A stretch of 64,000 nt of DNA from the IMG/VR virus record IMGVR_UViG_3300008121_000001, positions 1 to 64,000 of that record. One strand, given 5' to 3'. The position numbers and the translations under genes were made by a program. This document shows positions 24,425-26,700 of the stretch, piece by piece. Position 1 is the stretch's first letter, and every line of letters begins with the position of its first letter. The notes under the pieces were generated by a model, which was not told the origin of the DNA, did not search any database, and saw nothing but the letters and a program-made list of their open reading frames with translations. The DNA is from a virus.

Positions 24425-24807
24425 TGGCAAGACTAACTGGATGGAACAAAACAGCTAACTCTAAAAAGCCTCTTTATTTAGAGTACAAATCAACCGAGCA
24501 AACCATACAAGAAGCCATAGAGCAACATGAAACACGATTCTCCCGTTTAGGTTGGGCATCTATTATTAGTGTGTTTTTTCTGCTACTTTTGCACGATGCA
24601 TTTTTATATTATGTATTTAAGGTATTGTAATGTATCAGATTCAATTTTTTTCTGTCTATGGTGTTTGGGCTTTTTGGAACAGACAATTACGTTCTAAAGA
24701 TTTAGATGGGATGATTTCTAGGCATTTTGAAAAACTTGCTAAACGTAATCCTCGCAGCAAACTTCGTATCATTGACCTGAATACTGGTGAAGTAGTTTAT
24801 TCCTAAA

Positions 24808-24841
24808 GATAGATGTACTTCACCATTCTTTTCTATAATCT
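24808..24841 (+). promoter_or_regulatory. Phage-specific promoter
   Basis: GATAGA-22 nt-TAATCT, with an overlapping TATAAT. Confidence 0.6.
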
Positions 24842-24873
24842 AACTAAACCATCAAAATTAATCTGAAATTATC

Positions 24874-25638
24874 ATGCCTAAATCAACTACATCTGGTCTT
24901 TTTCTTCATCAACTTCTTGCTATCTCTGAAGGTGTGAAATCTCGCGTCAGCAAGGCAAAGACCGAAATCTACAAAACAATTCAAAAGCGCGATTTATTTG
25001 GAGGGTTGAGCAAAACTTACCGACCTAATGCTGAAGATGGTTATGTGTATCCTCCTGAATCGAAGCTGACACAAACTAACGTTAAAGACCAAGTTGCAGC
25101 ATTCGCCTCTCTATTGACTGAGTTGTTCGACACAATCACAACACTTGACAAGACCAATCAAGCCGCAATTGGTAATATTGTTGTCAACGGAGCTACAATT
25201 GCAGAGAATGTCCCTGTTTCGAGTTTGCTGTTTCTTGAAAAACAGTTGACTGACATTGTTACGTTTTTCGATTCATTACCTGTCCTTGACAGTGCAGAAA
25301 AGTGGAGTATTGACCCTAACACTGGTTTGTACGAATCTGAAGTTCGCCGTACCAACAAGACCAAGAAAATCACTGATTGGAAGGTCATTGAAGGTACGCT
25401 GACCGACAAACATCCTGCTCAGGTCAAAGAGTACAGCCAAGACATCAATGAAGGTGTGTGGGAGCAAATCAGCTACAGTGGTGCGATTTACCAAACTACC
25501 AAGCAAGCACTCGTCAGTCGCGCTCAGAAGCTTCTAGAGGCTGTTGTAGTGGCAAGAGAAGGTGCTAACGCCATCGAGGTGATTCCATTCAAGATTGGAA
25601 AAGATATCACGGATTATCTGACTGCACCGTTGCAATAA
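24874..25638 (+). CDS. DUF7873-like conserved protein
   Basis: L.QLLA.E.GVK, F.GLS.TY.P..EDG, VP...LLFLEKQL, LPVLD, HPAQV, G.W....SGA, ARE.AN; family recognised from memory. Confidence 0.65.
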   Translation: MPKSTTSGLFLHQLLAISEGVKSRVSKAKTEIYKTIQKRDLFGGLSKTYRPNAEDGYVYPPESKLTQTNVKDQVAAFASLLTELFDTITTLDKTNQAAIGNIVVNGATIAENVPVSSLLFLEKQLTDIVTFFDSLPVLDSAEKWSIDPNTGLYESEVRRTNKTKKITDWKVIEGTLTDKHPAQVKEYSQDINEGVWEQISYSGAIYQTTKQALVSRAQKLLEAVVVAREGANAIEVIPFKIGKDITDYLTAPLQ

Positions 25639-25640
25639 GA

Positions 25641-25669
25641 GAGAGCGCTCCTTCGGGAACGCTTTTTTT
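25641..25669 (+). terminator. Rho-independent terminator
   Basis: GAGCG-CTCC-TTCG-GGA-ACGC hairpin followed by T7. Confidence 0.75.
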
Positions 25670-25722
25670 ATATCTGTCTTTAGGTAGATGCAAAGCAATT
25701 GTTTAGGGAAGTATACTGTTTA

Positions 25723-26112
25723 CAGAGCATAAGTTAAAGCTTATCAAACACTTCTAAACCTCAGTTTTCTTCGTTCGACTCGAAGTTCTCCGACTATCGG
25801 AGAGTGATGTAACTGGTAAACATCTGAGGTCTAAAGAAGTGGCTCAATCTGAAAATGAAATTGAAGTTATTGCTCCAAGTTCATCTTAAGGCTTTTTTCT
25901 TTGCGTCAAAGTTCGACAGCTAATAATTGTAGATGTTGGTTCAAATCCAATCGAGGGCTTAATCTTGCCTTTGTCGTATAATGGTATTACCTACTTTGTA
26001 AAACTAAGCTGCCGCCACAGGATATTAATAAAGCAAAGACCGAAAAAGAAAATATAACAGTATGTTGTAAATACTAAAAGGAAGCCGCATCAGGATACGA
26101 TGCGGCTTTCGC
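25723..26112 (+). ncRNA. ~390 nt RNA with two circularly permuted tRNA-like domains (YrlA-like architecture)
   Basis: Two T arm > closed acceptor hairpin > D arm modules (25758-25830, 25929-25994); own promoter (25683-25717) and 3' hairpin (26081-26110). Confidence 0.75.
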
Positions 26113-26195
26113 CTTATGTACCCTAAGATAGATGTGCCATCCTACATAATCACCTAAACTTGTAAAACAAGCAAAGTAAAACAACAACTAATCAC

Positions 26196-26417
26196 ATGGC
26201 AGCAGCTAAAACCAAGTCCGACAACACCGACGTAGTAATTTCCAGTGCAGCAGCAGCACTCGTTAAGGCAACAGCAAACATTCAAGAAGCATTTAAGTCT
26301 GTCGATAGTCTCACAGAAACCGCAGAAACTCTCACTCGCGACATCGCTGGCAAGAAAGCTGAAATCGAAAGCTTGGCTGAAACTTATCAAACGTTACTTA
26401 GTCATGTTAGTATATAA
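26196..26417 (+). CDS. Short coiled-coil protein, possibly truncated
   Basis: Own promoter (26127-26160); heptad pattern ends abruptly at the tmRNA promoter. Confidence 0.5.
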   Translation: MAAAKTKSDNTDVVISSAAAALVKATANIQEAFKSVDSLTETAETLTRDIAGKKAEIESLAETYQTLLSHVSI

Positions 26418-26419
26418 AT

Positions 26420-26700
26420 GTCGTTGAGATTGCTAGATAGCTTGTGCATACGTTGGTTCGACCCCAACCCCGTCCACTTGTCTCAGTGGTGTAACGGTAG
26501 CATAGGAGTCTCCAAAACTCTTGGAAATAGTTCAAATCTATTCTGATTCGCCAAGGGCGGGATAAATGGATTCGCTGTGGAAGTGATTTCTAGCAACGCG
26601 CTGAAGTTTTATGAATGAAAGCTAGATGACACAAAAAGTAAATGCGAAAAACAACATTTGCCAATTCTCTAGAAAAGCTGCCCTCGTAGCCGCCTAGACT
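26420..26700 (+). ncRNA. ssrA: Permuted two-piece tmRNA: acceptor piece 26420-26477, coding piece 26555-26700
   Basis: Acceptor GGGCGGG/CCCGTCC-A with G3.U70; T arm GTTGG-TTCGACC-CCAAC; GGATTCG 5' motif; TTGCTAGA/TCTAGCAA inter-piece helix; tag ORF 26644-26697 AKNNICQFSRKAALVAA*. Confidence 0.88.
26480..26553 (+). tRNA. tRNA-Trp(CCA) inside the tmRNA intervening segment; imperfect acceptor stem
   Basis: Anticodon arm GGAGT-CTCCAAA-ACTCT; T arm AATAG-TTCAAAT-CTATT; encoded G-CCA end. Confidence 0.8.

What the first reader, a model, noticed from the sequence alone, without database searches (positions are those of the whole stretch)
24808..26112. DUF7873-like protein paired with a ~390 nt RNA carrying two circularly permuted tRNA domains: candidate new RNP system
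Seen in sequence: after the gene's terminator, a separately promoted RNA contains two tRNA modules in permuted order. Module 1 runs CCTCA, a 5-nt variable loop, T arm CTTCG-TTCGACT-CGAAG (25769-85), a 7-bp acceptor stem closed into a hairpin TTCTCCG-ACTAT-CGGAGAG (25786-804; the loop looks like a fused NCCA), TG, D arm ATGT-AACTGGTAA-ACAT, C, TGAGG. Its anticodon stem continues into CACTTCT/AGAAGTG instead of a loop. Module 2 (25929-994) repeats this with a different sequence: GTTGG-TTCAAAT-CCAAT, CGAGGGC/GCCTTTG, GTA-TAATGGTAT-TAC, within CAGCT/AGCTG and CTTTGC/GCAAAG stems. Established knowledge: this T-acceptor-D permutation is the architecture of bacterial YrlA Y RNAs, which partner Ro60/TROVE. 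No Ro60 gene is in this window. Inference: the RNA cannot be aminoacylated or decode, and it may form an RNP with the adjacent protein that displays two tRNA elbows, acting as a decoy or scaffold for tRNA-targeting defence, RNA repair or ribosome-binding factors.
Basis: partly seen in the sequence, partly recalled or inferred. Interest (0 to 1): 0.92.

Follow-up and report, generated by a model that had tools for sequence, protein, structure and literature searches.

The report
Two-headed tRNA-mimic RNA beside DUF7873
This cyanophage carries a roughly 390-base folded RNA made of two back-to-front, anticodon-less tRNA look-alikes, encoded right after a protein of unknown function (DUF7873); the same gene-RNA pair recurs across many phages and bacteria without the Ro60 protein that partners the only known RNAs of this shape.

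Summary
Window 25723-26112 encodes one structured RNA with two circularly permuted tRNA-like domains (T arm, closed 7-bp acceptor hairpin, D arm, open anticodon stem). Both are kept by compensatory changes in seven relatives of this Pseudanabaena-phage clade.

A strict structural descriptor finds the same modules, on the same strand, 60-250 nt after the DUF7873 gene:
- in 62 of 82 phage loci,
- in 74 of 80 bacterial loci (38-49% protein identity),
- in none of about 1 Mb of unrelated viral DNA.

Rfam's YrlA model hits them only below threshold, and not at all in this window. TROVE/Ro60 is absent from 10 phage records and from two complete DUF7873-bearing bacterial genomes.

DUF7873 has no known fold or family. 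A symmetric homodimer is predicted, which would match a two-headed RNA.

In relatives, the acceptor loops usually read N-CCA, although neighbouring tRNA genes lack CCA. The heads therefore imitate, or become, real tRNA ends.

RNA-library contigs identical to the window span both modules.

Protein-RNA binding, processing and function remain untested.

This scan has flagged the same pair many times on other DNA. I found no paper describing it.

The parts
24874..25638 (+). DUF7873 protein gene (254 aa)
   Evidence: Pfam PF25283 at E 1e-86. No PHROG, PADLOC, NCBIfam or PDB-sequence match. AF2 model pLDDT 83 with no fold match. Homodimer predicted.
25643..25669 (+). Hairpin plus T7 run after the gene (terminator-like)
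   Evidence: Read directly from the sequence. Conserved in Pam2 and PA-SR01. The scan called it only on the - strand, because of a C.A mismatch on the + strand.
25712..25717 (+). -10-like box TATACT, 7 nt before the conserved RNA 5' block; upstream motif TAGGTAGATG at 25681-90
   Evidence: TATAYT is invariant in 8 clade sequences. It was not called by the sigma-70 scan on the + strand. Promoter function is inferred.
25723..26112 (+). Whole ncRNA, about 390 nt (ends inferred)
   Evidence: Family consensus runs from the 5' GAGCGCAAG block to the 3' hairpin in 76 distinct RNAs. MFE z -3.4. RNA-library contigs cover 25778-25971 and 25808-25958.
25725..25729 (+). P1 5' strand GAGCA, pairing with TGCTC 25871-75 to close domain 1
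   Evidence: RNAalifold on 76 RNAs gives consensus GAGCG/CGCUC. The window has a G-C to A-U change at the fifth pair. The sequence is largely conserved, so covariation is weak (paired 0.87 against 0.80 shuffled).
25749..25841 (+). Domain 1 (module 1): extension helix 25749-55/25835-41, anticodon-stem analogue 25759-63/25825-29, T arm 25769-85, closed acceptor hairpin 25786-804 (loop ACTAT), U8-G9, D arm 25807-23
   Evidence: MFE gives the permuted cloverleaf, z -3.7. 8 of 13 pairs are compensatory in the clade. Descriptor hit. The D arm and variable loop resemble a neighbouring tRNA-Leu gene in relatives.
25855..25884 (+). Linker block, nearly invariant in the clade (contains the P1 3' strand)
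   Evidence: 18 nt are invariant in 8 clade sequences. Homologous to the family consensus CUCAGACUCUCGCUCCAG.
25899..26038 (+). Domain 2 (module 2): outer helix 25899-904/26033-38, GUCAAAG 25905-11, helix 25917-21/26007-11, T arm 25935-51, closed acceptor hairpin 25952-73 (loop TTAATCTT), D arm 25976-90, conserved CCACAGGATATTAA 26015-28
   Evidence: 10 of 12 pairs are compensatory in the clade. The family helices covary: the 9-bp helix is paired 0.88 against 0.59 shuffled. The equivalent domain in relatives matches Rfam YrlA over positions 1-114 at 30-45 bits.
26080..26110 (+). 3' hairpin with conserved GGAUA apical loop (also a possible terminator)
   Evidence: 11-bp stem, paired 0.89 against 0.65 shuffled over 76 RNAs. 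The GGAUA loop is conserved from cyanophage to actinobacteria.

Best explanation
The stretch encodes one non-coding RNA of about 390 nt, made of two tandem YrlA-like domains.

Each domain is a tRNA turned inside out. It has a T arm, a 7-bp acceptor stem capped by a loop, U8, a D arm with G18G19, and a 5-bp anticodon stem. That stem does not end in an anticodon loop; it runs into a closing helix made from distant parts of the RNA.

The RNA works together with the DUF7873 protein encoded just upstream, probably as a Ro60-independent ribonucleoprotein. In this model a symmetric DUF7873 dimer holds the stem/linker regions and the two tRNA-like heads (elbow plus acceptor/T minihelix) point outward.

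The heads carry the determinants read by enzymes that recognise tRNA shape and ends: RNase P, CCA-end and 3'-end enzymes, and T- and D-loop modifiers. So the particle most likely recruits, titrates or is processed by such enzymes. By analogy with M. smegmatis YrlA, the 7-bp acceptor hairpins may be opened by RNase P.

Basis of each step:
- Shown here: the RNA structure, its conservation, the gene-RNA linkage, and the absence of Ro60.
- Predicted by a model: the protein dimer.
- Inferred: protein-RNA binding, processing and cellular role.
For: Structure and covariation: for the clade; for 76 family RNAs.

Linkage to DUF7873: the modules lie on the same strand 60-250 nt after DUF7873.
- 62 of 82 phage loci (48 of 75 distant ones by the stricter rule).
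- 74 of 80 bacterial loci from many phyla.
- 0 hits in about 1 Mb of unrelated viral DNA.
- Remote relatives at 28-32% identity (Klebsiella, Rhizobium and Ralstonia phages) still have YrlA-like hits there.
- The other neighbours of bacterial loci are unrelated to one another, so the gene plus RNA is a self-contained unit.

No Ro60:
- TROVE is absent from the own record and 9 other phage records, 7 of them 98-100% complete by CheckV and two deposited as complete genomes.
- It is also absent from two complete DUF7873-bearing bacterial genomes.
- In 251 cyanobacteria, 6 of 11 DUF7873 genomes lack TROVE; where the places of both are listed they lie on other contigs or about 3 Mb apart.

Dimer: score 0.72, best of 3 controls 0.00. 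The mark was reached by 20 of 30 proteins solved as pairs of one chain and by 1 of 23 solved as single chains. The runs agree in at least 96% of contacts, and partner pLDDT is at least 87.

tRNA-end mimicry: 43 of 74 acceptor loops in distant phage loci begin N-CCA, although by my reading of the 3' ends printed there only about 5 of 93 neighbouring phage tRNA genes encode CCA (the script's looser pattern flagged 16).

Precedent: M. smegmatis YrlA, with a 7-bp stem, is cut by RNase P and gets CCA in vivo (PMC4201824).

RNA libraries: contigs from two studies, identical to the window, cover 25778-25971 and 25808-25958. These bridge the linker between the two modules.
Against: - No experiment shows a transcript end, a cleavage or protein binding.
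- DUF7873 is mildly acidic (pI 5.8; family median 6.3) and has no recognisable RNA-binding fold.
- 20 of 82 phage loci and 6 of 80 bacterial loci gave no module with my descriptor. Two of six remote relatives (Lak phage; Microcoleus phage, which has a HEARO RNA there) showed no clear double module.
- An earlier check within this scan priced the RNP reading at 22/100 after a word-pattern test found the RNA beside only 17.8% of DUF7873 genes. I did not reproduce that test.
- The window's own loops lack CCA.
- RNA-library contigs can contain DNA, and they cannot give ends or strand.
Confidence: 0.5

Rival explanations
1. An ordinary (double) Y RNA. The phage RNA binds the host's Ro60/Rsr, and the DUF7873 gene is only a neighbour.
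For: The topology is that of YrlA. The Rfam YrlA model matches relatives end to end. Clade relatives carry GUCGAAG, an exact match to the YrlA GNCGAAN0-1G motif, upstream of module 2 (PMC4201824). Ro60 is found in 46 of 251 cyanobacteria sampled, and 5 of 11 DUF7873 genomes have it.
Against: All Rfam scores are far below the gathering score (at most 45 against 69), and there is no hit in this window. Published YrlAs lie within 4 kb of Ro60. Here TROVE is absent from 10 phage records and from complete carrier genomes (Anabaena, Nocardia); where present and placed it lies on another contig or about 2-3 Mb away. Linkage is to DUF7873 instead. I could not determine whether Pseudanabaena has Ro60, because genome names are not shown.
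Confidence: 0.08
2. A multi-piece, tmRNA-like or chargeable RNA. RNase P and 3' trimming open both acceptor loops, giving three base-paired pieces with two free CCA ends. These ends are then aminoacylated or otherwise used, with DUF7873 playing an SmpB-like partner role.
For: The permuted order is that of two-piece tmRNA genes. The Rfam beta_tmRNA model (positions 86-150) hits module 1 in relatives. N-CCA is strongly enriched in the loops and U usually precedes the 5' strand. The stems are 7 bp, as in the RNase P-cleaved M. smegmatis YrlA. The locus sits beside tmRNA and tRNA genes in this phage and in GodonK.
Against: There is no G3.U70 pair and no conserved tag reading frame. ARAGORN and Rfam tmRNA models do not call the RNA. 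The window's loops lack CCA and are only 5 and 8 nt long. The terminal 31-mers of one RNA-library contig still run through both loops. An encoded CCA could equally serve to block RNase Z and keep the loop closed.
Confidence: 0.12
3. A cis-acting element of the DUF7873 transcript. The RNA would be a 3'-UTR stabiliser, a processing signal (mascRNA-like RNase P site) or a regulator of the gene, rather than a trans-acting partner.
For: It always lies downstream, on the same strand and close to the stop codon. The promoter in the window is only inferred.
Against: In the window, a hairpin with a T7 run separates gene and RNA, and an invariant -10-like box precedes the conserved RNA 5' block. About 390 nt with two elaborate domains, conserved single-stranded blocks and a conserved 3' loop is far more than a 3'-end signal needs.
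Confidence: 0.08
4. Circularly permuted genes for real decoding tRNAs, matured through a circular intermediate as in Cyanidioschyzon merolae.
For: The 3' half precedes the 5' half and the two are joined through the acceptor. In four clade relatives module 1 has an extra hairpin with a U-UAA-containing 9-nt loop.
Against: The window and the family consensus have no anticodon loop. The anticodon stems continue into conserved helices. The loop in the variant is 9 nt, not 7. No bulge-helix-bulge splicing system is known in bacteria (own knowledge; also 10.1101/312249).
Confidence: 0.02

Closest known systems
YrlA (Y RNA-like A, Rfam RF02553) with Ro60/Rsr (Chen et al. 2014, PMC4201824; Wang et al. 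2018, 10.1101/312249)
   Same: Permuted order T arm, closed acceptor stem-loop, D arm. The tRNA tertiary nucleotides are kept. There is no anticodon loop, and the anticodon stem is closed by distant strands. A conserved UCGA-type motif lies 5' of the head. It is found in both bacteria and phages. The Rfam model aligns end to end with relatives.
   Different: Scores stay below the gathering score, and there is no hit in this window. There are two heads in one RNA. The acceptor stem is 7 bp with N-CCA loops, against 6 bp with a tiny loop in most YrlAs. The RNA is linked to DUF7873, not to Ro60, and it occurs in genomes without TROVE.
Mycobacterium smegmatis YrlA
   Same: A 7-bp acceptor stem. 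Shown experimentally to be cut by RNase P and to receive CCA, which is the model for possible opening of the heads here.
   Different: It is bound by Rsr and encoded beside it, and it has a single head. Processing has not been tested here.
Two-piece (circularly permuted) tmRNA, e.g. the phage's own copy at 26422-26697
   Same: Gene order is T arm, acceptor 3' strand, (CCA), intervening loop, acceptor 5' strand. RNase P-type maturation is expected. Both lie in the same genomic neighbourhood.
   Different: The RNA studied here has full D stems, no G3.U70 pair, no tag reading frame and no pseudoknot series. Its intervening segment is only 5-18 nt.
b7a-tRNA with a Band-7 protein and RtcB (Burroughs and Aravind 2016, as cited in 10.1101/312249)
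   Same: A predicted tRNA-like RNA that partners a protein other than Ro60.
   Different: DUF7873 is not Band-7 by Pfam. No Band-7 or RtcB is found in this phage record. b7a-tRNA resembles an ordinary tRNA, not a permuted double mimic. I could not read the original paper.
Circularly permuted tRNA genes of Cyanidioschyzon merolae (Soma et al. 2007, as cited in 10.1101/312249)
   Same: A closed acceptor, with the ends emerging from the anticodon stem.
   Different: Those genes yield decoding tRNAs through splicing-type circularisation. Here there is no anticodon loop.

Membership tests
YrlA / bacterial Y RNA (RF02553) | T arm, closed acceptor stem-loop and D arm in that order, with tRNA tertiary nucleotides (U8, G18G19, T54-C56, G53-C61) | tested here: met
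YrlA / bacterial Y RNA (RF02553) | Reaches Rfam's gathering score (69 bits) | tested here: not met
   No hit in the window at E up to 10. Relatives score 25-45 bits.
YrlA / bacterial Y RNA (RF02553) | Encoded within about 4 kb of a Ro60/TROVE gene, on the same strand | tested here: not met
   No TROVE in the own record (64% complete) or in 9 other phage records, 7 of them 98-100% complete by CheckV and two deposited as complete genomes. In bacterial carriers TROVE is absent or far from the DUF7873 locus.
YrlA / bacterial Y RNA (RF02553) | GNCGAAN0-1G motif near the 5' end | tested here: inconclusive
   The window has GUCAAAG at 25905-11, one mismatch. Pam2, L004 and PA-SR01 have GUCGAAG. The family consensus is GGAUCGACCG.
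YrlA / bacterial Y RNA (RF02553) | Bound by Ro60/Rsr | not testable with these tools
   Needs immunoprecipitation.
Two-piece permuted tmRNA | Permuted tRNA-like domain with the acceptor strands joined through an intervening segment | tested here: met
   The beta_tmRNA model segment 86-150 hits module 1 of relatives.
Two-piece permuted tmRNA | G3.U70 alanine identity pair | tested here: not met
   Module 1 has G3-C70 and module 2 has C3-G70 (coordinates, read). The true tmRNA at 26469-75/26555-61 does have G3.U70.
Two-piece permuted tmRNA | Tag reading frame ending in a stop; recognised by ARAGORN or Rfam tmRNA models | tested here: not met
   No tmRNA call over 25723-26112. No reading frame is conserved across relatives.
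Circularly permuted decoding tRNA genes | A 7-nt anticodon loop is restored when the ends are joined | tested here: not met
   The anticodon stems continue into helices. The variant in L003, L004, L006 and PA-SR01 has a 9-nt loop hairpin.
b7a-tRNA / Band-7 / RtcB system | Adjacent Band-7 (SPFH) protein and RtcB ligase | tested here: not met
   DUF7873 hits only PF25283. No PF01145 or PF01139 in the own 93-kb record. The record is 64% complete.
DUF7873 (PF25283) | Full-length match above the Pfam cut-off | tested here: met
   290.7 bits against a cut-off of 27, covering residues 11-250.

The most novel reading that the evidence does not exclude
A DUF7873 dimer and the two-headed RNA form a widespread, Ro60-independent particle. 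RNase P opens its acceptor hairpins to give a three-piece RNA with two free CCA ends. These ends are charged, or act as bait for enzymes or toxins that attack tRNA 3' ends. This would be a new class of tRNA-end mimic RNP used by both cells and tRNA-rich phages.
Probability: 0.15. Interest if true: 0.9.

Novelty: new variant of a known kind. Interest (0 to 1): 0.78.

Why it matters
Y RNAs and Ro60 are the only established case of closed, permuted tRNA mimics working as protein partners, and what their tRNA-like domain does is still unknown.

Here is a second family of such RNAs, phylogenetically broad. It is tied to a different protein of unknown fold and appears to be self-contained. It is present in at least 590 bacterial species and hundreds of phage contigs, often inside phage tRNA/tmRNA clusters.

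It offers an independent system in which to ask what tRNA mimicry is for, and it would give DUF7873 a function. It also flags about 400-nt 'empty' gaps in many cultured phages (Pam2, PA-SR01, GodonK, phiRSL1, Klebsiella and Rhizobium jumbo phages) as missed RNA genes.

Tried and rejected
- Rfam at the gathering threshold and at E up to 10 gave no family for the window RNA.
- A 16-mer scan of IMG/VR for the invariant linker found only the same five clade contigs among 115 mostly chance hits.
- DUF7873 gave nothing in PHROGs, PADLOC, NCBIfam, PDB sequences, Foldseek (best E 0.009 to Cas7, TM 0.14), VIA-align (Z at most 7.7, generic helical) or ESM Atlas (score 0.81). These are blanks, not evidence that the fold is new.
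- The idea that loop CCA simply follows the phage's tRNA-gene style was tested and rejected.
- The TAAGATAGATG-type motif upstream of the gene, of the RNA and of the next gene is not enriched in the window.
- The sigma-70 scan found no + strand promoter for the RNA.
- A 6-nt periodicity (CUC/CUG every six bases) beside module 1 may just reflect pairing of CUGA repeats with UCAG repeats, so I did not pursue it.
- Read laying: the 5' and 3' thirds of the RNA had no contig cover. One contig ends at 25958, the last base of the module-2 acceptor 3' strand. The two studies do not stop at the same place, and contigs cannot give ends, so I do not count this as evidence for processing.
- The papers of Burroughs and Aravind (2016) and Sim et al. 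(2020) are not held.
- Genus names are not shown by the genome search, so I could not tell whether Pseudanabaena has Ro60.
Full report
**What the window is.** The window is part of a 93-kb IMG/VR virus record, 64% complete. It is related to the Pseudanabaena phages Pam2 and PA-SR01 and to five IMG/VR contigs. The flagged gene, 24874-25638, is a full-length DUF7873 (PF25283, E 1e-86).

**The observation.** Module 1 folds by itself into a permuted cloverleaf (z -3.7). The whole 25700-26115 stretch folds better than all 100 shuffles.

The RNA evolves fast in the clade, at about 70-75% identity, while the protein stays 88-96% identical. That divergence provides covariation:
- In module 1, 8 of 13 predicted pairs show double compensatory changes.
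- In module 2, 10 of 12 do.
- Two cells count as broken or gapped: one pair of the module-1 acceptor stem, in two sequences, beside an alignment shift.

The nucleotides that build the tRNA elbow are kept in both modules: U8, A14, G18G19, T54-T55-C56, A58 and G53-C61. ARAGORN and Rfam call neither module as a tRNA, tmRNA or Y RNA.

**Anatomy beyond the two modules.** I aligned 76 distinct RNAs from phages and bacteria. This shows a common plan:
- a conserved 5' block (consensus GAGCGCAAG; window GAGCA at 25725);
- a helix P1 between that block and the linker (window 25725-29 / 25871-75), which closes domain 1;
- a conserved linker;
- domain 2, closed by two or three covarying helices (window 25899-904/26033-38 and 25917-21/26007-11), with conserved internal-loop blocks (AUCGA-type on the 5' side, CUUAAACG-type on the 3' side);
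- a 3' hairpin whose apical loop, GGAUA, is conserved from this cyanophage to actinobacteria (window 26080-26110).

The RNA is therefore a tandem of two YrlA-like domains plus a 3' hairpin, about 390 nt in all.

Within the clade, module 1 varies at its anticodon end:
- The window, L005 and L007 have an open stem with a 7-bp extension.
- Pam2 has a short stem.
- L003, L004, L006 and PA-SR01 carry an extra hairpin with a 9-nt loop, AUUAAAAAC. This makes a five-way junction.

What is conserved is the acceptor/T/D 'top half', not the anticodon end.

**Linkage to DUF7873.** I wrote a structural descriptor with these requirements:
- a 5-bp T stem with a TTCRANN loop;
- immediately after it, a 7-bp hairpin;
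- a U8 spacer;
- a 4-bp D stem with GG in the loop.

Results:
- It hit both modules in every clade member.
- It hit nothing in about 1.0 Mb of unrelated viral loci.
- It hit 48 of 75 distant DUF7873 loci from IMG/VR (38-47% protein identity). The hits were always on the gene's strand, starting 60-150 nt after the stop codon, and usually came as two modules about 150 nt apart.
- A slightly relaxed version raises this to 62 of 82 phage loci.
- It hit 74 of 80 loci from bacterial genomes: cyanobacteria, actinobacteria, planctomycetes, myxobacteria, Chloroflexota and others.

Remote relatives at 28-32% identity also have an unannotated gap of 350-640 nt after the gene. Sub-threshold YrlA or permuted-tmRNA hits fall in that gap in four of the six I examined. 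Of the other two, the Microcoleus phage has a HEARO RNA there and the Lak phage showed nothing.

The other neighbours of bacterial loci are unrelated to each other: an AI-2E transporter, a homocysteine enzyme, a hydrolase, a peptidase, a GNAT and an ADP-ribosylglycohydrolase. In phages the pair sits inside tRNA clusters. In GodonK, for example, it lies among roughly 30 tRNA genes and a tmRNA. In this window it lies just upstream of a tmRNA and a tRNA-Trp.

**Relation to Y RNAs.** The Rfam YrlA model aligns over its whole length with domain 2 of relatives (30-45 bits) and with domain 1 of L133 (24.7 bits). The gathering score is 69, and the window itself gives no hit.

Published YrlAs are defined by lying beside Ro60 (PMC4201824). 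Here:
- TROVE is absent from the own record and from nine other phage records, seven of them 98-100% complete by CheckV and two deposited as complete genomes.
- Among five bacterial carriers, three have TROVE, and where both places are listed it lies about 2-3 Mb away. Two complete genomes have none.
- In 251 sampled cyanobacteria, TROVE occurs in 46 and DUF7873 in 11. Five have both; where the places of both are listed they lie on other contigs or about 3 Mb apart.

So the RNA works like a YrlA in shape, but it fails two defining tests of membership.

**tRNA-end mimicry.** In distant phage loci, 43 of 74 acceptor loops begin with a discriminator followed by CCA. Most end in U just before the 5' strand. 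By my reading of the printed 3' ends, the same phages encode CCA in only about 5 of 93 ordinary tRNA genes; the script's looser pattern flagged 16. The loop CCA is therefore selected for its own sake.

A 7-bp stem, RCCA and U(-1) are the RNase P determinants (own knowledge). M. smegmatis YrlA, the one YrlA with a 7-bp stem, is cut by RNase P in vitro and is cut and CCA-tailed in vivo (PMC4201824; 10.1101/312249). There are two possible readings:
- the closed loop imitates a tRNA end, and CCA also blocks RNase Z (own knowledge);
- or the loop is actually opened.

I cannot decide between them. The window's loops (ACTAT, TTAATCTT) lack CCA, and so does the 3' end of the phage's own tmRNA (A-CUUG).

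**The protein.** DUF7873 has no family beyond its DUF and no solved or similar structure. It is slightly acidic.

A homodimer is supported by the complex predictor:
- score 0.72, best of 3 controls 0.00;
- the mark was reached by 20 of 30 proteins solved as pairs of one chain and by 1 of 23 solved as single chains;
- the runs agree in at least 96% of contacts, and partner pLDDT is at least 87.

This is the model's confidence, not a measurement. A symmetric dimer would suit an RNA with two similar heads, but that link is my inference.

**Expression.** Contigs from RNA libraries of two freshwater studies, identical to the window, cover 25778-25971 and 25808-25958. They bridge the linker between the two modules. 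Other contigs cover the tmRNA and short parts of the DUF7873 gene. This shows the sequence is present in RNA libraries and that the modules are contiguous there. It does not prove transcription, strand or ends.

**Earlier notes of this scan.** The same DUF7873/double-mimic pair has been reported in at least 140 other genomes. A later check there kept the observation at 90/100 but priced the RNP reading at 22/100. I reached the linkage independently, and with a structural descriptor I find it much higher than the 17.8% word-pattern figure quoted there. However, my samples are the 80 best loci of each collection.

The nearest printed idea that I could verify is b7a-tRNA with a Band-7 protein and RtcB (10.1101/312249). 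Neither Band-7 nor RtcB is found in this record. I found no paper that mentions DUF7873.

**Verdict.** The RNA is real and structured, with two permuted tRNA mimics (about 0.97). It is genetically coupled to DUF7873 (about 0.85). It is probably a Ro60-independent RNP (about 0.5). Its function is unknown. My best guess is that it engages enzymes that read tRNA shape and ends.

Noticed in passing
window 26422-26697: A phage-encoded two-piece (permuted) tmRNA. Rfam tmRNA_permuted scores 41.2 bits against a gathering score of 47, and ARAGORN misses it. A complete tRNA-Trp(CCA) gene, 26480-26553, is nested in the intervening segment. The acceptor strands 26469-75/26555-61 form a G3.U70 pair. The tag reads AKNNICQFSRKAALVAA-stop. 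One RNase P cut after the tRNA's CCA+1 would free both RNAs. RNA-library contigs cover 26469-26700.
   Followed up: partly
L003, L004, L006, L002 (PA-SR01), module 1; e.g. L004:3866-3975: In four clade relatives module 1 carries an extra anticodon-arm-like hairpin (UUCGG, 9-nt loop AUUAAAAAC, CCGAA), and the ends leave through a stem at the variable-arm position, giving a five-way junction. The D arm is of tRNA-Leu type. The window lacks this hairpin.
   Followed up: partly
window 24805-24815, 25681-25690, 26124-26134: A TA(A/G)(A/G)(A)TAGATG motif stands upstream of the DUF7873 gene, of the RNA and of the next gene, and is conserved in relatives after the RNA's 3' hairpin. It may be a phage promoter or regulatory element. 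It is not statistically enriched in the window.
   Followed up: partly
L002 (PA-SR01) 2478-2969: PA-SR01 has about 500 extra bases, with ORFs of 42 and 112 aa, inserted between the DUF7873 terminator and the RNA. This may be a degraded mobile or homing-endonuclease gene.
   Followed up: no
L287 (Microcoleus phage My-WqHQDG) 2444-2653: A HEARO (IscB-type omega) RNA, 129 bits, lies directly after this phage's DUF7873 gene, where other relatives have the second tRNA-like domain.
   Followed up: no
window 25855-25884 and the flanks of module 1 in many loci (e.g. L139, L133): Short words recur every six bases (CUCAGA CUCUCG CUCCAG; window UUGAAG UUAUUG CUCCAA). They may mark a repeated protein-binding register, or only the pairing of CUGA repeats with UCAG repeats.
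   Followed up: no
window 26196-26417: A 73-aa coiled-coil ORF lies between the RNA and the tmRNA. It is conserved in the clade (annotated in Pam2 as 'histone H3-like centromeric protein') and absent from distant DUF7873 loci. No family was found.
   Followed up: no
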